Positions 1-16,299 of a stretch of 18,255 bases of DNA are shown here, piece by piece (positions within the stretch are counted from its first letter, which is position 1; every line of letters begins with the position of its first letter). The notes beneath the pieces are model-generated. The model searched no databases, was not told where the DNA came from, and worked only from the letters and a program-made list of their open reading frames with translations. The DNA is from a virus. The DNA lies in the UHGV virus genome UHGV-0073224; one strand, 5' to 3'. A program made the translations under genes and the position numbers.

Positions 1-53
1 CCTTTCTCGTTGCACCACCAGTACTGCTGAATAACGATGTATGATTTGCTCAT
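1..53 (-). CDS. 5' end of a gene that runs off the left edge (partial)
   Basis: ATG at about 53..51 overlaps the stop of the 355-aa ORF (ATGA); reading frame stays open to position 1. Only about 17 codons visible. Confidence 0.3.
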   Translation of the reverse strand, partial: MSKSYIVIQQYWWCNEK

Positions 54-1117
54 AGCGCGGCTCCCTGTCGTAACTGGTCGGCGAGTTCGAATTCACCATG
101 GTTAGTAAATTCGCCTGCAAGTTTTTCTCTTAGCTTCATAACGGCTTCCTTTGCGCTTTCGATATCCTTATGGTGCCCTGCGCTGTACTTCTTCCCGTTA
201 AATTGAACGCTTGCTACATATCGCTTATCGCGCTTATTCCAATAGACCCCCTTGACACCAGTGGTGTTATTTTTCTGGGTTGGTTTGTTGAATTGATTCT
301 GCGATAGAGAGCAAAGGCGCAGGTTTCTTATGCTGTTGTCTTTCTTGATGCCATTGATATGGTCGATAGGCTGGGAAGGCCATTCTCCGTAATGTAGAAG
401 CCATGCTAGACGGTGAGCAAAGCACTTCTTGCCAAACAGCGAAAAGGCGTAATAGCCCTGCCAAGTTTGAGAGCCAATAATTGCTCCTTCCTGACGACCT
501 GCAAAGTTGACTTTCGCGGTAAGAACTCCAGTTTCAGGGTTGTAGTCAATAAGGTCTCTGATATCGCCAACAGACATGAGCAGATTCTTATTAAGGATTT
601 CAATTTCCTTCTGGAGTGGTTCAGATGCCTCACGCCTAACTTCAGCCAGGAAAGCATCGGTGGCTGGGGTTTTGTTATCTGACTCCAGCCACTGGTTGTA
701 GTAATAATCGAACATGCCAGTAGGATAACCACATCCGCCGTGCACGTGGTCTTTCATAGCAGAACCACACATGCAGTAGTCATTGTCAGTATTACTAATG
801 ATGTTGATAAGTTGCTGTGTCCGTTGCTTCAACATCGCATTCTCCGCCGCCAGCGCCGAAAACTTCTCGTGTGCCAACTTAACAGCTGCATCAGCCTGCT
901 TAATTGACTCAGTCGCTTTCTGGTGGTCTTCGGCCAGCCCTGCTAAATCAGCCTCCAGTTCGGCTAGGCGTTCATTTAATGCATCTCGTTCATCCAGTAG
1001 AGCCAGCACAACCTGAGGTGTTACTTTCATACGAAATGCCAGCAATTTTTGAGGTGTTGCTACTGTTTCAATTGCTACTGCTGCCTCACGCAGTACCTGA
1101 TAGTCAATCTTGCTCAC
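50..1117 (-). CDS. Ea22-family mosaic protein: N-terminal coiled coil, central HNH nuclease motif, C-terminal AP2-like DNA-binding domain
   Basis: Track ORF 355 aa. HNH-like motif HRLAWLLHYGEWP...IDHINGIKKDNSIRNLRL; AP2-like segment GVKGVYWNKRDKRYVASVQFNGKKYSAGHH. N-terminal coiled coil and C-terminal tail resemble the adjacent ORF 1114..1713. Confidence 0.7.
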   Translation of the reverse strand: MSKIDYQVLREAAVAIETVATPQKLLAFRMKVTPQVVLALLDERDALNERLAELEADLAGLAEDHQKATESIKQADAAVKLAHEKFSALAAENAMLKQRTQQLINIISNTDNDYCMCGSAMKDHVHGGCGYPTGMFDYYYNQWLESDNKTPATDAFLAEVRREASEPLQKEIEILNKNLLMSVGDIRDLIDYNPETGVLTAKVNFAGRQEGAIIGSQTWQGYYAFSLFGKKCFAHRLAWLLHYGEWPSQPIDHINGIKKDNSIRNLRLCSLSQNQFNKPTQKNNTTGVKGVYWNKRDKRYVASVQFNGKKYSAGHHKDIESAKEAVMKLREKLAGEFTNHGEFELADQLRQGAAL

Positions 1118-1695
1118 TGGTTGCCTCCTTTGCGAAGCTGGTCGGCGATATCTTCGAGAACGCCATCAGAGAATGAGCGGTCAAAATCGCCTTCCGGCGC
1201 ATTAGCCATAAACTCAGTTGAGGTAAGAATCATCCGGGCAATATCCGCTGCGTTCTTCGCAGTATCATCAATAAAACCAGCATCCCAGGCAGCCAGCATT
1301 CTGTTCGCCACAAAGTAAGCGCCTTCCTTGCGTGCTTCAGTCTTCACTTCATCCCAAAAAGCGTCGGTGACTTGGGTTTGCGGCATCCTTCCGTCTATTG
1401 CGCAGATATACGCATCAGATAGTTCACCCTGCTCGCCGTCAAACACGTAGCAACTCTGTACGATAAATTTATTCAGCCACGCATTCTCCACAGCCAGCGC
1501 CGCGCACTTGGCCTCAAGGTTATCAATCGTGATTCCAGCAGAACGACACTCCCGCAACGCCGTTTCTAGTTTTGATTCAAGTTCACCGAACTTACGGACA
1601 AGATATTCAGCGTTTGTTTCGTTAACCTTTAAATCTCGGGGGATGCATTTACCTTTCAGAAAACCATCCATCTCAATTAGTGACATTTGTTTCAT
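1114..1695 (-). CDS. Ea22-like early-left protein
   Basis: Track ORF 1114..1713 begins at a GTG; internal ATG ([10 protein letters not shown]) at 1695 follows a GGAG and overlaps the upstream stop (ATGA). Shares motifs [12 protein letters not shown] and ...[10 protein letters not shown] with the 355-aa neighbour. Confidence 0.6.
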
Positions 1696-1889
1696 TTCTT
1701 CCCACTCCGCCACATAGCATTCAGATATTTGTTTTGATTCACTGATGGAAAAGAATTTCTCTTAAGCAATTCCTCTCTCGATGGCATTGGCTTTACGCGT
1801 TGGCGAATAATCATTTCTGCCGGAAGAATGCCGGGATTGTATGCAAGTCCTCTCATGGTAAATTCCTCAGTCATTACTGATAGCGCCAT
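1692..1889 (-). CDS. small hypothetical early-left protein
   Basis: Track ORF 65 aa, co-oriented and overlapping its neighbours in a coupled chain. An alternative start MTEEF lies about 15 codons in. No recognisable motif. Confidence 0.4.
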
Positions 1890-3185: not shown

Positions 3186-3356
3186 TCAGAATGGACATTC
3201 CCCAAGGAAATAACGCTGATTTAATACTTCGACTCGGGACAAATTAAGGCATACCCGCATTCCTTCGCGGTCGCCATTATGGCGATACCAGAGAGCTTTC
3301 TGCGTGTACATGCGTCTCTGTAACTTGCTCTCCTTCACTGTGGTTGCAAGTGACAT
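3186..3356 (-). CDS. small protein immediately upstream of erf (Arf-like by position)
   Basis: Not on track (56 aa: MSLATTVKESKLQRRMYTQKALWYRH...). Strong RBS GAAGGAGAT before the ATG; stop 10 nt before the erf ATG. Overlaps the next small ORF by about 80 nt in another frame. Confidence 0.4.
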   Translation of the reverse strand: MSLATTVKESKLQRRMYTQKALWYRHNGDREGMRVCLNLSRVEVLNQRYFLGECPF

Positions 3357-3435
3357 GAATATCTCCTTCGTTACCGATTAATTCTTTCATCTGACGAATG
3401 AATTCTTCGTCTGACCAGTTATCTGTAAAACTCAT
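3277..3435 (-). CDS. small acidic ORF overlapping the kil stop
   Basis: Not on track (52 aa: MSFTDNWSDEEFIRQMKELIGNEGD...). Its ATG overlaps the kil stop (ATGA) but has no clear RBS; overlaps 3186..3356 in another frame, so only one may be real. Confidence 0.3.
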   Translation of the reverse strand: MSFTDNWSDEEFIRQMKELIGNEGDIHVTCNHSEGEQVTETHVHAESSLVSP

Positions 3436-3584
3436 TTCCTGCGATACCACGGAAGGTTGATAGCTGATTTCATCGCTTTATTTGCTTCAAGCCACATTTT
3501 TGAATCACCAATAAATCTGGCTATTACTGCTTTGTTCTGTGCAGCACGAAGCATCTGGTGATTGATGGCTATTTCATTGCGCAT
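3432..3584 (-). CDS. kil: Kil-like host cell-division inhibitor
   Basis: Not on track (50 aa: MRNEIAINHQMLRAAQNKAVIARFIGDSKMWLEANKAMKSAINLPWYRRK). The IA.FIGD.KM motif and position directly after cIII match recalled lambda Kil. Confidence 0.6.
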   Translation of the reverse strand: MRNEIAINHQMLRAAQNKAVIARFIGDSKMWLEANKAMKSAINLPWYRRK

Positions 3585-4825: not shown

Positions 4826-4987
4826 TTATTCGCATCGCATGACAACATCAAATTTTTCGAGATTACTTTGTCGCAACAATCCCTCTTCTACGCGGTCAGC
4901 TTTTCTATAATTATCAAATTCGAAATGTTTAATTACTTCTTTCGTTTCTCGCTCTATAACTTCAACAATGTATTTCTTATTCATCAT
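4826..4987 (-). CDS. small hypothetical protein (53 aa)
   Basis: Track ORF 4826..5050; internal start MMNKKYIVEV... at 4987 overlaps the stop of the upstream paralog gene (ATGA). Confidence 0.4.
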   Translation of the reverse strand: MMNKKYIVEVIERETKEVIKHFEFDNYRKADRVEEGLLRQSNLEKFDVVMRCE

Positions 4988-5262
4988 TCTTCCCCCAGGG
5001 CCTTGCTGATGGCTGCCTTGGCTCGTTTGTATTCGGTTAACTCTCTGCACCCTTCGTCATGCTCGTAAAGGAAGACAAGCTCTTGCAGTGCTTCAAGCAA
5101 ATCAGGAGCTGCTGCTATCAGTAGCGCATCCTCCCTTTCATTTCTTGTTGCTGCTTCAATGTATGTGTCACCAATCGTCACACCATGGAACGTAGTCATC
5201 ATCTCGTTGACGTTTCTAACCGTGTACTTCCATTTACCAGGCGTACCCTTAAACTCTTTCAT
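4984..5262 (-). CDS. small protein, paralog A of a duplicated family (conserved AAPDLLEALQ...ISKALGEE C-terminus)
   Basis: Track ORF 4984..5268 begins at a GTG; ATG (MKEFKGTPGKW) at 5262 has a GAGGTGG RBS. C-terminal half is shared with ORF 5783..6034. Confidence 0.55.
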   Translation of the reverse strand: MKEFKGTPGKWKYTVRNVNEMMTTFHGVTIGDTYIEAATRNEREDALLIAAAPDLLEALQELVFLYEHDEGCRELTEYKRAKAAISKALGEE

Positions 5263-5280
5263 ATCCACCTCTGTTGTTTA

Positions 5281-5782: not shown

Positions 5783-6034
5783 TTACTCATCTCCAAGGGC
5801 TTTGCTGATTGCTGACTGTGCTTTCGATACTTCATCAGGATAATGGTCATTCCAGTTTTGCTTGTATGCCTTGTTTAGCATCGCTTGCAGGGCTTCGAGC
5901 AAATCAGGAGCTGCCTCCATCAATCTCACATCACCTCGATGGATGGTTGTATCGTCAAACGTGAAATAAACCCCATCATCGTTAAATCCAGCGCCAACAA
6001 CATTCCATGGCCTTTTCATTCTTCCTACTGTCAT
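5783..6034 (-). CDS. small protein, paralog B of the duplicated family
   Basis: Track ORF 83 aa (MTVGRMKRPWNVV...); GAGGTG RBS; shares EAAPDLLEALQ and ISKALGDE with paralog A. Confidence 0.55.
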   Translation of the reverse strand: MTVGRMKRPWNVVGAGFNDDGVYFTFDDTTIHRGDVRLMEAAPDLLEALQAMLNKAYKQNWNDHYPDEVSKAQSAISKALGDE

Positions 6035-9298: not shown

Positions 9299-9943
9299 AT
9301 GACATACGAAAATGACAAATTCCAGGTTCTGAAGAGCATGAAGGTGCCAGATGATTTTAAATCAAATGGCTTTGTTTATGTGCTTTCTAATGAGTGCATG
9401 CCAGGAATTTATAAGATTGGGATGACTAAGCATTCACCAGAAGTTAGGGCTAAAGAAATTTCAGCCTCTACTGGCGTTCCTAAGCCATTTAAGGTGATAG
9501 CAGCCTTTCATTCAAATAATCCCGCATCAGATGAAAAACTCATGCATAAAGCCTTTGCAAAAGAGAGGCTTAGTGATAATCGAGAGTTTTTCAAGCTTGA
9601 AGATAATGAGCTTTCTGAATCTCTAAATGAAATAAGGGCGCTGGTTGGCCCTGAAAGAAATGGCGAGACGGCAGAATACGCAATTTACGACTCATTCATT
9701 TCTTTTCGCCATGAAAATGAGCTTGATCTTAATGAGGAGCTTATAGAGCAAGGTCTGGGTAGTGTAGTTGGTCATCTTCCTGCGGTGAAAAATTTCCTTA
9801 TTCGCGCCGGAATTGATTACGCGAAGCAACTGATAAGCAAATATAACTCATCGATAGTTATTAATACAGATGGCAGTGTGGTGATGGTTAAGTCTCTTGA
9901 AGCCCAATGCTTTGATGCGGAGGTTGGAAATGAGCCTGGCTGA
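9299..9943 (+). CDS. T5orf172 (GIY-YIG-like) domain protein inserted between cII and the replication genes
   Basis: Track ORF 214 aa; AGGAG RBS; N-terminal region GFVYVLSNECMPGIYKIGMTKHSPEVRAKEIS...PFKVIAAFH...EKLMHKAFAKERL...REFF fits the recalled T5orf172/MUG113 pattern. C-terminal half unassigned. Confidence 0.6.
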   Translation: MTYENDKFQVLKSMKVPDDFKSNGFVYVLSNECMPGIYKIGMTKHSPEVRAKEISASTGVPKPFKVIAAFHSNNPASDEKLMHKAFAKERLSDNREFFKLEDNELSESLNEIRALVGPERNGETAEYAIYDSFISFRHENELDLNEELIEQGLGSVVGHLPAVKNFLIRAGIDYAKQLISKYNSSIVINTDGSVVMVKSLEAQCFDAEVGNEPG

Positions 9944-14869: not shown

Positions 14870-15054
14870 ACGCCACAATTCAAACGATACCAGAGCTTCT
14901 TATCCAGACACGAGGCAATCAGACCGAAGTGGCGAGGATGCTTTCCTGCGCAAGAGGAACAGTGCTCAAGTACAACCGAGACAGCAAAGGCGAGCGTCAC
15001 GTAATAGTTAACGGCGTCCTGATGGTCAAACAGGGCAAGAGGGGAAGACGATGA
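14866..15054 (+). CDS. ninH: NinH-like protein
   Basis: Track ORF 62 aa; ...GNQTEVARMLSCARGTVLKY...VIVNGVLMV... matches the recalled lambda NinH pattern. Confidence 0.7.
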   Translation: MNATIQTIPELLIQTRGNQTEVARMLSCARGTVLKYNRDSKGERHVIVNGVLMVKQGKRGRR

Positions 15055-15539
15055 GCATAAGAGAAATAAACCTCACCAAAGAACAGCACGATTGGCTGAA
15101 TGGCTGGCTTGAACTGTGGGGCGCATGGGTTTATTCAGGTCGTCTGGAAAAGCGCATGAGCAGCGTAATAGCGAAGTTCATGGAGAGCGTAGAGCCGGGA
15201 AGAGTTATGACAAGGCCAATGTGTAATGATGATGATGGAATGTTGATTTCTCAGGTCGTCGATTCCGTCATGTGCATTGACAAGAAAGCCTTTGGCATCC
15301 TCCTCAGCTACTACGCTCATGGATCTTCCAAGCATGCCATTGCATCTTACTATCATCGTGTCGCAAGACCTCGCAAGATGTTATGCCGGGGCGGCGGGCG
15401 TATTCAAAAACCATCGCTCGCAACCTGTCGCCGGGAAGTTGACGAAATCCTCAATGCTTCGTTGTTTATGATTTACCCAGTTCTGGATAGTGCGTTTAAA
15501 AACCGGAAACGTGTAGAGAAAATTAAACATGTAGCATAG
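15051..15539 (+). CDS. Q: late-gene antiterminator Q
   Basis: Track ORF 162 aa; last gene of the nin region, directly upstream of a promoter-like element; Cys/His-rich core typical of Q-family proteins. Confidence 0.75.
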   Translation: MSIREINLTKEQHDWLNGWLELWGAWVYSGRLEKRMSSVIAKFMESVEPGRVMTRPMCNDDDGMLISQVVDSVMCIDKKAFGILLSYYAHGSSKHAIASYYHRVARPRKMLCRGGGRIQKPSLATCRREVDEILNASLFMIYPVLDSAFKNRKRVEKIKHVA

Positions 15540-15545
15540 AACGTG

Positions 15546-15630
15546 TTGACATCATTGAGCAAATGAGCAACACTATTCGCATAAGCTGCCGTTAGTGACT
15601 CTTAAGTTGCAACGGTGGCTTTTTTTATTT
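15546..15630 (+). promoter_or_regulatory. putative late promoter pR' with a downstream terminator-like hairpin
   Basis: TTGACA at 15546..15551 just after the Q stop; imperfect hairpin GCTGCCGTT...AACGGTGGC followed by TTTTTTTATTT ending about 15630. Confidence 0.35.
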
Positions 15631-15705
15631 GGGTCAGTCGTATAAAGGTCATTACGGAAGGCTGTTAACCTTCTTATCGTGGTTCGAGTCCACGCTGTCC
15701 CGCCA
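15631..15705 (+). tRNA. tRNA-like gene, anticodon GUU (Asn) by manual fold
   Basis: Acceptor GGGTCAG/CTGTCCC, anticodon arm GAAGG-CTGTTAA-CCTTC, T-arm CGTGG-TTCGAGT-CCACG, 3' GCCA. D-arm is non-canonical (3-4 bp stem). Confidence 0.5.
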
Positions 15706-15710
15706 AACAT

Positions 15711-15786
15711 GCTGGTTTAGCTCCAATGGTAGAGCGGTCGCCTTGTAAGTGAATAGGTAGCGGTTCAAATCCGTTAACCGGCACCA
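15711..15786 (+). tRNA. tRNA-like gene, possibly Thr (UGU); anticodon stem imperfect, possible pseudo-tRNA
   Basis: Acceptor GCTGGTT/AACCGGC, D-arm GCTC-CAATGGTA-GAGC, T-arm AGCGG-TTCAAAT-CCGTT, 3' ACCA. Expected anticodon stem GTCGC/GTGAA does not pair; loop CTTGTAA. Confidence 0.4.
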
Positions 15787-15842
15787 AAAACCCAGCCAGG
15801 GTATCTTCAGCCGCAGAGCTGACATTGCCACACCCTAACATT

Positions 15843-15866
15843 CCCGCCTTGAGCGGGTTTTTTATT
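15843..15866 (+). terminator. intrinsic terminator between the tRNA-like genes and the lysis genes
   Basis: CCCGC-CTTGA-GCGGG followed by TTTTTTATTT. Confidence 0.5.
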
Positions 15867-15975
15867 TCAGGCTCACGGGAATCAATCACTACGTGCTTTG
15901 TTGAAAATCCAGCCAGTGAAGCCTGATCCTTTTCATACACACACAGCACCATCCGGAAAATCGGAGGTGAGGCCT

Positions 15976-16299
15976 ATGAAAATGCCATACAAACAAGATT
16001 TCATCGCTGCGCTACTTGCCGCCAAGGAGCAGGGTATTGGTGCAATGCTGGCTTTTATCATGGCGTATCTGCGTGGTCGCTATAACGGCGGCGCGGTAAC
16101 AAAAACGCTAATTGATGCGCTGATGTGCGCGATGATTGCCTGGTTCGTTCGTGACCTTCTGGACTTTATCGGCCTGAGCAGCAACCTCGCCTACATAGCC
16201 AGCGTCTTTATTGGATACATCGGCACCGATTCGATCGGCAATCTGATTAAAAAACTTGCAGCAAAAAAGGCGGGAGTTGACGATGCAAACCAGTCCTGA
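15976..16299 (+). CDS. S: holin, lambda S class I type, with dual-start motif
   Basis: Track ORF 15898..16299 begins at a TTG; ATG at 15976 with GGAGGTGAGG RBS; [39 protein letters not shown]... matches recalled lambda S including the Met1-Lys2-Met3 start. Confidence 0.9.

What the first reader, a model, noticed from the sequence alone, without database searches (positions are those of the whole stretch)
15631..15786. Two tandem tRNA-like genes with non-canonical arms between Q and the holin
Two 75-76-nt elements each have paired acceptor stems, a canonical T-arm and a 3' CCA. The first has a clean anticodon arm (GUU, Asn) but a short D-arm. The second has a good D-arm but an anticodon stem that does not pair in my fold. 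They sit on the late transcript between a tR'-like hairpin and a second terminator. Phage tRNAs at this locus can tune late-gene translation, and degenerate ones may be decoys or processing signals.
Basis: seen in the sequence. Interest (0 to 1): 0.5.

Follow-up and report, generated by a model that had tools for sequence, protein, structure and literature searches.

The report
Known phage tRNA-Asn/tRNA-Thr late-leader cassette
These are two genuine phage tRNA genes (Asn and Thr) already annotated in phage 21 and its relatives, and the odd anticodon stem of the Thr tRNA matches a published trick that lets it survive a bacterial defence enzyme that destroys the host's own copy.

Summary
ARAGORN and Rfam both call tRNA-Asn(GUU) at 15631-15705 and tRNA-Thr(UGU) at 15711-15786, at 55 bits against a threshold of 29. 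They lie between the phage-21-type Q/pR'/tR' module and a lambda-type holin.

It is not new. The same cassette is annotated in phage 21, Sf6, SfI, BTP1 and many P22-like phages. It matches 841 of 5,426 complete E. coli genomes.

The Asn gene is identical to phage 21's. The Thr gene differs from phage 21's at 5 of 76 bases and is a rare allele.

The "non-canonical arms" are genuine:
- Thr has a G27·A43 mismatch and a G30·U40 wobble.
- Asn has U4·U69 and U13·U22 mismatches.

The G27·A43 mismatch is present in all 13 phage-21-type Thr variants and U4·U69 in 10 of 12 Asn variants (U·C in the other two). Other stem pairs show compensatory changes, so these are tRNAs under selection, not decayed copies.

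A 2025 paper showed that phage 21's tRNA-Thr resists the P2 Old tRNase and rescues cells. Resistance comes from its shortened anticodon stem and lost CNG cleavage motifs. The window allele keeps both features and also lacks C40.

Codon-usage compensation is poorly supported. The role of tRNA-Asn remains untested. Interest is low to moderate.

The parts
15051..15539 (+). Q antiterminator gene (phage-21 type)
   Evidence: phrog_943 anti-termination protein Q-like, E 1.6e-89. About 98% DNA identity to phage 21 Q over the part of the gene covered by the query (window 15500-15539) and the downstream leader to 15786.
15546..15581 (+). Late promoter pR': -35 TTGACA at 15546-15551, Q-binding element ATTGAGCA/AATGAGCA at 15554-15569, -10 at 15569-15574, transcription start at 15581
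   Evidence: Coordinates transferred from the phage 21 annotation (OL657228.1) through a gap-free identical alignment. The sequence was read directly.
15583..15630 (+). tR' intrinsic terminator of the 50-nt leader RNA: hairpin 15583-15621, U-tract to 15630
   Evidence: Identical to the phage 21 terminator feature. Folds at -20.2 kcal/mol, z -4.7.
15631..15705 (+). tRNA-Asn(GUU), anticodon at 15664-15666, CCA encoded
   Evidence: ARAGORN. RF00005 55.3 bits. 100% identical to the annotated tRNA-Asn of phage 21, Sf6 and HK446.
15706..15710 (+). 5-nt spacer AACAT between the tRNAs
   Evidence: Read from the sequence. AACAT or AATAT in relatives.
15711..15786 (+). tRNA-Thr(UGU), anticodon at 15744-15746, CCA encoded. 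A rare allele of phage 21 tRNA-Thr with G26, U40, A45, A59 and G70
   Evidence: ARAGORN. RF00005 55.4 bits. 71/76 identical to phage 21 and HK446 tRNA-Thr. The exact allele occurs in 1 of 5,426 E. coli genomes, 0 phage records and 1 IMG/VR contig.
15843..15867 (+). Second intrinsic-terminator-like hairpin (CCCGCCTTGAGCGGG plus T-run) upstream of the holin
   Evidence: Terminator scan. The hairpin is conserved, with different stem sequences, in Klebsiella phage 2 LV-2017, HK225 and several IMG/VR loci.
15976..16299 (+). Lambda-family holin, first gene of the lysis cassette
   Evidence: ORF list. PGAP annotates 'phage holin, lambda family' in the closest prophage.
3277..3450 (-). Homologue of HK446 gp33, a published trigger of P2 Old. 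Context for why an Old-resistant tRNA would pay.
   Evidence: tblastn 88% identity over 52 aa. Trigger function is from bioRxiv 10.64898/2026.07.10.737580.
1114..1713 (-). Homologue of HK446 gp27 (Oad2), a published protein inhibitor of P2 Old
   Evidence: tblastn 47.6% identity over the full length, E 6e-47. Not tested for this homologue.

Best explanation
The element is the phage-21-type two-tRNA cassette of lambdoid and P22-like phages.

Expression (inferred):
- Both genes lie in the leader of the late operon.
- RNA polymerase starting at pR' (15581) normally stops at tR' (U-tract ending 15630), one base before tRNA-Asn.
- When Q loads on the polymerase it reads through and transcribes tRNA-Asn, a 5-nt spacer, tRNA-Thr and then the lysis and late genes.
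- Host RNase P and 3' trimming enzymes would release the two tRNAs, whose CCA ends are encoded.

Both carry the elements their synthetases need. Asn has G34-U35-U36 and G73. Thr has G1-C72, C2-G71, G35 and U36.

tRNA-Thr(UGU) most likely works as a nuclease-resistant stand-in for the host's single-copy tRNA-ThrU.
- Toprim tRNases of the OLD family, carried by P2 prophages and P4-like satellites, cut the host tRNA in its anticodon stem and stop phage protein synthesis. P2 Old cuts after C28 and C40 at paired CNG motifs. PARIS AriB cuts at C40|A41.
- The phage tRNA has no CNG motif on either strand.
- It has only 4 stem pairs because of G27·A43.
- It has G39/G41/A16 where AriB needs U39/A41/U16.
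- In this allele U replaces C40.
- It should therefore escape cutting and keep ACA decoded.

tRNA-Asn(GUU) is probably a second replacement tRNA of the same kind. It has no CNG, C39 in place of U39, and A16 in place of U16.

Shown here: the genes, their structure, their conservation and covariation, and their context.
Shown by others, for the phage 21 and HK446 allele: resistance to Old and rescue.
Inferred: that this allele and the Asn tRNA behave likewise, and the processing route.
For: - tRNA calls.
- Identity to the annotated phage 21, Sf6, SfI and HK446 cassettes.
- Present in 841 of 5,426 complete E. coli genomes.
- Family analysis: compensatory changes at Thr pairs 3:70, 5:68, 6:67 and 51:63. 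In Asn, compensatory changes at 6:67, 7:66, 11:24, 13:22, 27:43, 28:42, 29:41, 49:65, 50:64 and 51:63. G27·A43 (Thr) is present in all 13 phage-21-type variants; U4·U69 (Asn) is kept in 10 of 12 variants and is U·C in the other two.
- PMC12445682: P2 Old kills by cleaving host tRNA-ThrU at paired CNG motifs. Phage 21 tRNA-Thr protects against Old and resists cleavage in vitro. [quoted passage not shown] The rescue tRNA replaces the host tRNA and does not shield it.
- bioRxiv 10.64898/2026.07.10.737580: HK446 tRNA-Thr, identical to phage 21's, restores plating of Old-sensitive phages.
- PMC12409363: AriB cuts host Lys(UUU), Thr(UGU) and Asn(GUU). Changes at U39, A41 or U16 block or reduce cutting. 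T5 Thr and Asn variants contribute to rescue.
- The window phage encodes a homologue of the Old trigger gp33 and of the Old inhibitor Oad2.
- BTP1 RNA-seq sets its two tRNA genes apart ('excluding the two tRNA genes') when listing the five prophage genes with TPM above 100, which reads as those genes also being highly represented (PMC7067206). BTP1's cassette is 97.6% identical.
- A related cassette carries Thr(UGU) plus Gly(UCC), the first two tRNAs listed as depleted by Old.
Against: - The window Thr allele differs at 5 bases from the tested one and is rare. Its anticodon arm is very weak at -1.6 kcal/mol. Function is therefore not guaranteed.
- Thr tRNA alone did not rescue lambda from Old.
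- The cassette lacks tRNA-Lys(UUU), AriB's main target.
- tRNA-Asn is not among the strongly Old-depleted tRNAs, and nobody has tested the phage Asn tRNA.
- Some family variants keep a full CNG pair: Asn types D and E, and Thr type C. Loss of the motif is therefore not universal.
- The genes are expressed late, whereas Old is triggered early.
- The HK446 authors themselves suggest its tRNA may be a lysogeny adaptation, because HK446 also has a protein inhibitor.
Confidence: 0.72

Rival explanations
1. Codon supplementation. [quoted passage not shown] This would speed late protein synthesis in any host, whether or not a defence system is present.
For: - Window early and nin genes use ACA at 18.3 per 1000 codons (0.38 of Thr codons). 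E. coli uses about 7 per 1000 (own knowledge; the SfI paper gives 7.1 against 17.3).
- Asn codons run 48-50 per 1000 in the window early genes and in HK446.
- In phage L, 24 of 25 Asn codons in the capsid gene are AAC.
- Host thrU is single-copy.
Against: - The ACA excess is in early genes, which are translated before a Q-dependent tRNA is made.
- Late genes have only 10-11 ACA per 1000, or 0.16-0.18 of Thr codons.
- Lambda has no tRNAs and shows the same pattern: 16.3 per 1000 early and 10.1 late.
- Extra host tRNA-ThrU gave little or no protection in the Old assay, whereas phage versions did.
- Supply alone does not explain the conserved mismatches.
- The host has four tRNA-Asn genes (own knowledge).
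Confidence: 0.2
2. Degenerate tRNA-like elements that act as decoys for nucleases, or as RNase P processing signals that cut the leader from the late mRNA, without being used in translation.
For: - Rfam scores are about 18 bits below the host isoacceptors.
- The Thr anticodon arm is weak.
- The PARIS authors raise competition with host tRNAs as a possibility.
- RNase P cleavage would necessarily separate the leader from the late mRNA (inference).
Against: - Synthetase identity elements, U33, A37, the T-loop, G18G19 and the encoded CCA are all intact.
- The stems covary.
- Phage 21 tRNA-Thr restores ACA decoding, and phage tRNAs did not protect host tRNA-ThrU from degradation.
- Working T5 tRNAs score the same or lower.
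Confidence: 0.05
3. Lysogeny housekeeping. The tRNA compensates for a host tRNA gene (thrW) disrupted by prophage integration, as the HK446 authors suggest.
For: HK446 and the SfI/P22-type phages integrate in thrW. The preprint's discussion proposes this for HK446.
Against: - thrW is the CGU isoacceptor, not UGU.
- attP rebuilds an intact thrW on integration.
- It does not explain tRNA-Asn, or the position behind tR' in the late operon.
- The same cassette occurs in phages with other integration modules.
Confidence: 0.03

Closest known systems
Phage 21 tRNA-Asn / tRNA-Thr ('tRNA-Thr21'), OL657228.1 39591-39746
   Same: Same Q21, pR', Q-binding element and tR'. Same position and 5-nt spacer. 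tRNA-Asn is 100% identical. tRNA-Thr shares the anticodon, the G27·A43 mismatch, the C28U/G42A loss of CNG, and C14 in the D-loop.
   Different: The window tRNA-Thr has G26, U40, A45, A59 and G70, giving two extra G·U pairs and no C40. Homology to phage 21 ends at the CCA of tRNA-Thr. Downstream lies a different leader with a second terminator and a lambda-type holin, not the S21 pinholin.
HK446, Sf6, SfI and BTP1 / P22-like late-leader tRNA cassettes
   Same: The same Asn-Thr pair directly after the U-tract of tR' and before the lysis genes.
   Different: The upstream regulatory module differs: lambda-type Q and tR' in HK446, and other Q/promoter versions in Sf6 and the P22-like phages. The second tRNA can be Leu(UAA) in phage L, Arg(UCU) in a Klebsiella phage, or chimeric Thr plus Gly(UCC).
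T5 and T4 tRNA-Thr(UGU) and T5 tRNA-Asn(GUU), used against PARIS and Old
   Same: Same anticodons. The 31:39 pair is changed from the host A-U to C-G or G-C. There are substitutions around the 40/41 cleavage site, mismatches in the anticodon stems, and similar Rfam scores.
   Different: No detectable common descent: about 60% identity or less. The T5 genes sit in a large tRNA array of a virulent phage that also supplies tRNA-Lys(UUU). They are not on a Q-controlled late leader.
Stx-phage 933W-type ileZ-argN-argO tRNA genes downstream of pR' (own knowledge; ileX reference cited)
   Same: tRNA genes placed between Q/pR' and the late or lysis genes of a lambdoid phage.
   Different: Different tRNA species that read rare Ile and Arg codons. 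They are classically explained by codon supply. No sequence relation was tested here.
Host E. coli thrU and asnT
   Same: Same anticodons, discriminator bases and identity elements, and the same T-loop.
   Different: The host anticodon stems carry paired CNG motifs and UAAUC at positions 36-40, and they have U16. The host tRNAs have fully paired acceptor, D and anticodon stems and score 72.6-73.8 bits against 55.

Membership tests
Bacterial elongator tRNA (Rfam RF00005) | Score above the curated covariance-model threshold, plus an independent tRNA-finder call | tested here: met
   55.3 and 55.4 bits against a gathering score of 29, full-length matches. ARAGORN calls both.
Bacterial elongator tRNA (Rfam RF00005) | Cloverleaf with 7/4/5/5-bp stems, a 7-nt anticodon loop with U33 and a purine at 37, a GTTCRA T-loop and G18G19 | tested here: met
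   All loops are canonical. Each tRNA has one or two non-Watson-Crick stem positions: Asn U4·U69 and U13·U22; Thr G27·A43 and G30·U40. Thr has C14 in place of A14.
Bacterial elongator tRNA (Rfam RF00005) | Stems maintained by compensatory substitutions among homologues | tested here: met
   Double changes occur at 4 Thr pairs and 10 Asn pairs across 16 and 12 distinct family sequences. These were counted by hand on structure-parsed sequences. No phylogenetic correction was applied.
Bacterial elongator tRNA (Rfam RF00005) | Aminoacylation and use in translation | not testable with these tools
   The identity elements are present by inspection: Asn G34-U35-U36 and G73; Thr G1-C72, C2-G71, G35 and U36 (own knowledge of E. 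coli AsnRS and ThrRS). The phage 21 allele restores ACA decoding.
Phage-21-type late-leader Asn-Thr tRNA cassette | Sequence homology to the annotated phage 21, Sf6 and SfI genes | tested here: met
   Asn is 75/75 identical and Thr 71/76 identical to phage 21. The 287-nt region is 98.3% identical.
Phage-21-type late-leader Asn-Thr tRNA cassette | Position directly after the tR' U-tract and upstream of the lysis genes, on the same strand | tested here: met
   Asn starts one base after the U-tract and the holin starts at 15976. The same arrangement holds in 9 of 10 loci inspected.
Old-resistant phage tRNA-Thr(UGU) (Govande et al. 2025) | UGU anticodon with A37 | tested here: met
   The anticodon loop is CUUGUAA.
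Old-resistant phage tRNA-Thr(UGU) (Govande et al. 2025) | Altered CNG motifs at positions 28-30 and 40-42 of the anticodon stem | tested here: met
   The host has CUG/CAG. The window has UCG/UGA, so there is no CNG on either strand and no C at position 40.
Old-resistant phage tRNA-Thr(UGU) (Govande et al. 2025) | Shortened anticodon stem | tested here: met
   G27·A43 leaves 4 pairs. This holds in all 13 phage-21-type variants.
Old-resistant phage tRNA-Thr(UGU) (Govande et al. 2025) | Resists Old cleavage and rescues Old toxicity | not testable with these tools
   Shown for the phage 21 and HK446 allele only. The window allele differs at 5 bases.
Anti-PARIS phage tRNA set (T5 Lys/Thr/Asn) | Substitutions at the AriB determinants U39, A41 and U16 | tested here: met
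   Thr has G39, G41 and A16. Asn has C39, U41 and A16. The determinants are, where they were established on tRNA-Lys.
Anti-PARIS phage tRNA set (T5 Lys/Thr/Asn) | Supplies a resistant tRNA-Lys(UUU), the required component | tested here: not met
   The 18-kb window holds only two tRNAs. HK446's whole genome also holds only these two.
Codon-compensating phage tRNA | Cognate codons are enriched relative to the host in the genes translated while the tRNA is made, and more so than in relatives lacking the tRNA | tested here: not met
Late genes have 10-11 ACA per 1000 codons and early genes 18. Lambda, without tRNAs, has 10.1 and 16.3.

The most novel reading that the evidence does not exclude
The cassette could be a coordinated, evolving counter-defence kit, not one useful tRNA plus a passenger. 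This reading has three parts.
1. tRNA-Asn, the constant first member with its conserved U4·U69 mismatch, would be a nuclease-evading replacement for a tRNase that cuts host tRNA-Asn. That tRNase could be AriB-like or not yet identified.
2. The rare window Thr allele would be a second-step escape, because it removes C40, the base after which both Old (site 2) and AriB cut.
3. The terminator-tRNA-tRNA-terminator layout would let transcripts that leak through tR' make tRNAs in lysogens without expressing the holin.
Probability: 0.3. Interest if true: 0.55.

Novelty: already known. Interest (0 to 1): 0.3.

Why it matters
The finding confirms that a sequence-only reader can spot real tRNA genes and real structural oddities. 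The genes themselves have been annotated since the phage 21, Sf6 and SfI genomes were published. The oddity in tRNA-Thr now has a published mechanistic explanation: it evades the P2 Old anticodon-stem nuclease.

Three things remain worth a specialist's time:
- The untested tRNA-Asn partner, which is the constant member of these cassettes.
- The rare U40 allele found here, which may mark ongoing escape at the second cleavage site.
- This phage combines an Old trigger homologue, an Oad2-like inhibitor and the resistant-type tRNA. That makes it a compact natural system for studying layered counter-defence in temperate phages.

Tried and rejected
- Lowest-energy folding as a test of tRNA-likeness. 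Rejected because host thrU and asnT also fail to give the cloverleaf as the lowest-energy fold.
- Codon-usage compensation. Tested on the window, HK446, the EC2001 prophage and lambda. ACA enrichment is confined to early genes and is equally present in tRNA-less lambda.
- The count of structure pairs on the MAFFT alignments A4 and A5. Not used, because MAFFT misaligned the T-stem of the divergent type C. Pairs were parsed by structural position in a script.
- A literature search for BTP1 with the tRNA names returned only mitochondrial genome papers.
- A megablast count of tRNA-Thr alleles in E. coli genomes finds only alleles that share a 28-nt exact word. It therefore gives the frequency of the exact window allele (1 genome) but not of the phage 21 allele.
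- The species-representative genome scan found only 5 loci: Escherichia, Shimwellia, Atlantibacter and two probably contaminated metagenome-assembled genomes. It added little.
- PADLOC and Pfam scans of unknown early-operon ORFs gave no defence hits, apart from a T5orf172-domain protein.
- Loss of the CNG motif as a universal family trait. Rejected, because Asn types D and E and Thr type C retain paired CNG motifs.
- PARIS as the sole selective agent. Considered unlikely, because no tRNA-Lys(UUU) is supplied.
Full report

Yes. ARAGORN finds exactly two tRNA genes in the 18,255-base window: tRNA-Asn(GTT) at 15631-15705 and tRNA-Thr(TGT) at 15711-15786, both on the + strand. Rfam's tRNA model matches both over its full length at 55.3 and 55.4 bits, against a gathering score of 29 and with E about 1e-9. 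No other Rfam family reaches threshold in the window. Both genes encode the 3' CCA and are separated by 5 nt.

**2. How non-canonical are the arms?**

The Rfam alignment and a position-by-position parse give the following.

tRNA-Asn:
- acceptor GGGUCAG/CUGUCCC with U4·U69
- D-stem GUAU/UUAC, which is three pairs plus U13·U22
- a clean 5-bp anticodon stem GAAGG/CCUUC
- a 4-nt variable loop, a normal T-arm and discriminator G73

tRNA-Thr:
- a fully paired acceptor with one U3·G70
- a 4-bp D-stem, with C in place of the near-universal A14
- anticodon stem GUCGC/GUGAA, in which G27·A43 is unpaired and G30·U40 is a wobble
- a normal T-arm and discriminator A73

The stem has four pairs and is weak: -1.6 kcal/mol for the isolated arm, against -3.5 for the phage 21 allele and -2.4 for host thrU.

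ViennaRNA's lowest-energy fold of tRNA-Thr is not a cloverleaf. The same holds for host thrU and asnT, so this is uninformative.

Host asnT and thrU score 72.6 and 73.8 bits. The tRNAs of phage T5 score 33-69 bits, with T5 Asn at 55.4 and T5 Thr at 45.4. The window genes are thus clearly less canonical than the host's and typical of phage tRNAs.

**3. Context**

The 287 bases from the end of Q to the CCA of tRNA-Thr are 98.3% identical to phage 21. That phage's curated record annotates, in order:
- the -35 element
- the Q-binding element
- the -10 element
- the transcription start
- the sigma-dependent pause element
- the tR' terminator
- tRNA-Asn and tRNA-Thr

Transferring these through a gap-free alignment places the elements in the window as follows:
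- pR' -35 at 15546-15551
- the Q-binding element at 15554-15569
- the transcription start at 15581
- tR' at 15583-15630

tRNA-Asn begins at the very next base. The tR' hairpin folds at -20.2 kcal/mol, z -4.7.

Homology to phage 21 stops at the CCA of tRNA-Thr. The next 190 bases resemble the holin-upstream leader of Klebsiella phages, HK225 and mEp237. They contain a second terminator-like hairpin at 15843-15857 followed by a T-run. The stem of that hairpin differs in sequence but is maintained in those relatives. A lambda-family holin starts at 15976.

**4. It is a known element**

The same pair is annotated in phage 21, SfI, Sf6, JLK-2012, BTP1 and many P22-like Salmonella phages. PGAP annotates it in E. 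coli prophages, and 841 of 5,426 complete E. coli genomes have a match to the region. The SfI genome paper describes the two genes and notes their presence in Sf6, ST64T, PS3 and phage 21. The phage L paper discusses the same site in P22-like phages.

HK446 carries the identical pair at 35097-35252, behind a lambda-type Q, pR' and tR'. The pair is unannotated in that record.

In a sample of 119 loci with the phage-21-type Asn gene:
- 106 have Asn plus Thr(UGU)
- 8 have Asn, a chimeric Thr and Gly(UCC)
- a few have Asn alone

In 9 of 10 loci inspected, Asn starts within 0-4 nt of the U-tract of an intrinsic terminator. The hairpin differs between loci: phage-21 type, lambda type and three others.

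**5. Are they tRNAs under selection?**

I compared 12 distinct Asn and 16 distinct Thr sequences of the family.

Thr shows double, pair-preserving changes at:
- 3:70 (U-A to C-G, with the window's U·G as an intermediate)
- 5:68 (G-C to U-A)
- 6:67 (U-A to C-G)
- 51:63 (C-G to A-U)

Asn shows double, pair-preserving changes at:
- 6:67 and 7:66
- 11:24 and 13:22
- 27:43, 28:42 and 29:41
- 49:65, 50:64 and 51:63

By contrast, the G27·A43 mismatch is present in all 13 phage-21-type Thr variants. The Asn acceptor stem is identical between two types whose other three arms have diverged at most paired positions, and U4·U69 itself is kept in 10 of the 12 Asn variants, with U4·C69 in the other two. This is the pattern of working tRNAs whose deviations are themselves selected. 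These counts are by hand and are not corrected for phylogeny.

In BTP1, whose cassette is 97.6% identical, RNA-seq of lysogens lists five prophage genes with TPM above 100 'excluding the two tRNA genes', which reads as those two also being highly represented, and places the start of the late operon directly after them.

**6. What the deviations do**

Govande et al. (PMC12445682) showed the following:
[quoted passage not shown] It cuts after the C of paired CNG motifs at positions 28-30 and 40-42.
- Phage tRNA-Thr(UGU) genes rescue the cell.
- Resistance needs both an altered CNG motif and a shortened stem.
- Phage 21's own tRNA-Thr protects cells and resists cleavage in vitro. [quoted passage not shown]
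- The rescue tRNA replaces the degraded host tRNA and does not shield it.

A 2026 preprint confirms the rescue with HK446 tRNA-Thr, which is identical to phage 21's.

The window allele keeps every one of these features. It has C28U/G42A and the G27·A43 mismatch, so it has no CNG on either strand and only four stem pairs. It also has U at position 40 where phage 21 has C.

The paper reports that site 1 of tRNA-Thr21 was nearly fully resistant, that cleavage mapped to the same two sites as in host tRNA-ThrU, and that these nucleases usually cut 3' of a cytosine. Loss of C40 may therefore harden site 2. This is an inference.

PARIS AriB is a second Toprim tRNase, carried by P2 prophages and P4-like satellites. 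It cuts host Lys(UUU), Thr(UGU) and, more weakly, Asn(GUU) at C40|A41. U39A abolishes cutting, and A41C and U16C reduce it. The window Thr has G39, U40, G41 and A16. The window Asn has C39, U41 and A16.

A third prophage nuclease, HepS of Gifsy-1, lists Thr(UGU) among its secondary targets. The single-copy host tRNA-ThrU is thus a recurrent target.

**7. The phage in the window is itself engaged with Old**

Its left operon is a P22/HK446-type recombination module. Identities to HK446 proteins are:
- Erf: 99.5%
- gp31 (the ORF that also matches a PHROGs SSB family): 99.2%
- Kil: 100%
- Abc2: 62%
- gp33, a homologue of the protein reported to trigger Old: 88% (window 3280-3435)
- Oad2, a homologue of the reported Old inhibitor: 47.6% over the full length (window 1117-1695)

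This is circumstantial support that an Old-resistant tRNA pays for this phage.

**8. Codon usage**

ACA use per 1000 codons:

| Genome | Early genes | Late genes |
|---|---|---|
| Window | 18.3 | 11.3 (lysis genes only, 532 codons) |
| HK446 | 18.0 | 11.4 |
| EC2001 prophage (related) | not measured | 10.3 |
| Lambda (no tRNAs) | 16.3 | 10.1 |

The E. coli value is about 7 per 1000 (own knowledge; the SfI paper gives 7.1).

The bias therefore lies in genes translated before a Q-dependent tRNA appears, and it is not specific to phages that carry the tRNA. Asn codons are 28-50 per 1000 with no consistent excess. Codon supply may contribute but does not explain the element.

**9. What is unresolved**

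- tRNA-Asn is the constant first member of these cassettes. The second member can be Thr, Leu(UAA) or Arg(UCU). No paper I found tests the phage Asn tRNA.
- Host tRNA-Asn is only a slow Old substrate and a secondary AriB target.
- Some Asn variants retain paired CNG motifs.
- The cassette lacks tRNA-Lys(UUU), so it should not defeat the B185 PARIS system alone.
- Thr alone did not rescue lambda from Old.
- The window Thr allele is rare. The exact sequence occurs in 1 of 5,426 E. coli genomes, none of 50,697 phage records and one IMG/VR contig. Its activity is untested.

**10. Verdict**

The element is already known, and its most striking oddity already has a published mechanism. The remaining novelty is modest: the Asn partner, the U40 allele and the terminator-sandwich layout.

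Noticed in passing
window 1114-1713 (-), 3277-3450 (-), 50-1117 (-): The early-left operon encodes three items of interest. One is a 47.6%-identical homologue of HK446 gp27/Oad2, a published P2 Old inhibitor. One is an 88%-identical homologue of gp33, a published Old trigger. The third is a fusion of an Ead/Ea22-like, weakly Oad2-like N-terminal domain to an HNH endonuclease.
   Followed up: partly
L129 (HK446, NC_019714.1) 35097-35252: [quoted passage not shown] Neither is annotated in the record. A 2026 preprint describes HK446 as encoding a single Thr(UGU) tRNA.
   Followed up: yes
L024 ~1134-1370 (+), L078, L163, L164, L174, L181, L182, L192: A three-tRNA cassette variant: phage Asn, a chimeric Thr(UGU) and Gly(UCC).
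- The chimeric Thr joins phage nt 1-25 to host thrU nt 26-76.
- The Gly is 88-99% identical to host glyT.
- Host tyrU and the spacer between thrU and glyT are deleted.
- L192 has a host-identical Thr 3' half.
- The other seven carry G42U and U43C, which leave a 3-bp anticodon stem that ARAGORN no longer calls.
- Thr(UGU) and Gly(UCC) head the list of Old-depleted tRNAs.
   Followed up: partly
window 15631-15705; L076, L071, L080: The tRNA-Asn acceptor stem, including its U4·U69 mismatch, is identical in two cassette types whose D, anticodon and T arms have diverged with compensatory changes. I have no explanation.
   Followed up: partly
L137 (Klebsiella phage 2 LV-2017, KY271396.1) 967-1123: Unannotated tRNA-Asn(GUU) plus tRNA-Arg(UCU) lie between Q and the lysis genes. 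They are followed by a leader homologous to window 15787-15975, including the second terminator hairpin.
   Followed up: partly
window 15843-15867; L076, L071, L080, L137, L136: A second intrinsic-terminator-like hairpin downstream of the last tRNA recurs in many cassettes, with different stem sequences. The result is a terminator-tRNA-tRNA-terminator layout ahead of the holin.
   Followed up: partly
window 9299-9943 (+): A 214-aa ORF between cII and the O-like replication gene has a T5orf172/MUG113 domain. It partly matches the PADLOC models PDC-S57 and PD-Lambda-1.
   Followed up: no
window 15652-15831 (-) and 15674-15952 (-): Antisense ORFs of 59 and 92 aa overlap the tRNA genes. At least one phage record (KY709687.1) annotates a 'hypothetical protein' over this stretch where the tRNAs lie.
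   Followed up: no
window 4984-5268 (-) and 5783-6034 (-): Two small paralogous ORFs of the same unknown family (phrog_1273) flank a 156-aa ORF of unknown function in the early-left operon.
   Followed up: no
L132, L134 (genome contigs): The enterobacterial phage tRNA-Thr sequence turns up on short contigs binned into Segatella copri and Collinsella metagenome-assembled genomes. These are probably mis-binned phage contigs.
   Followed up: no
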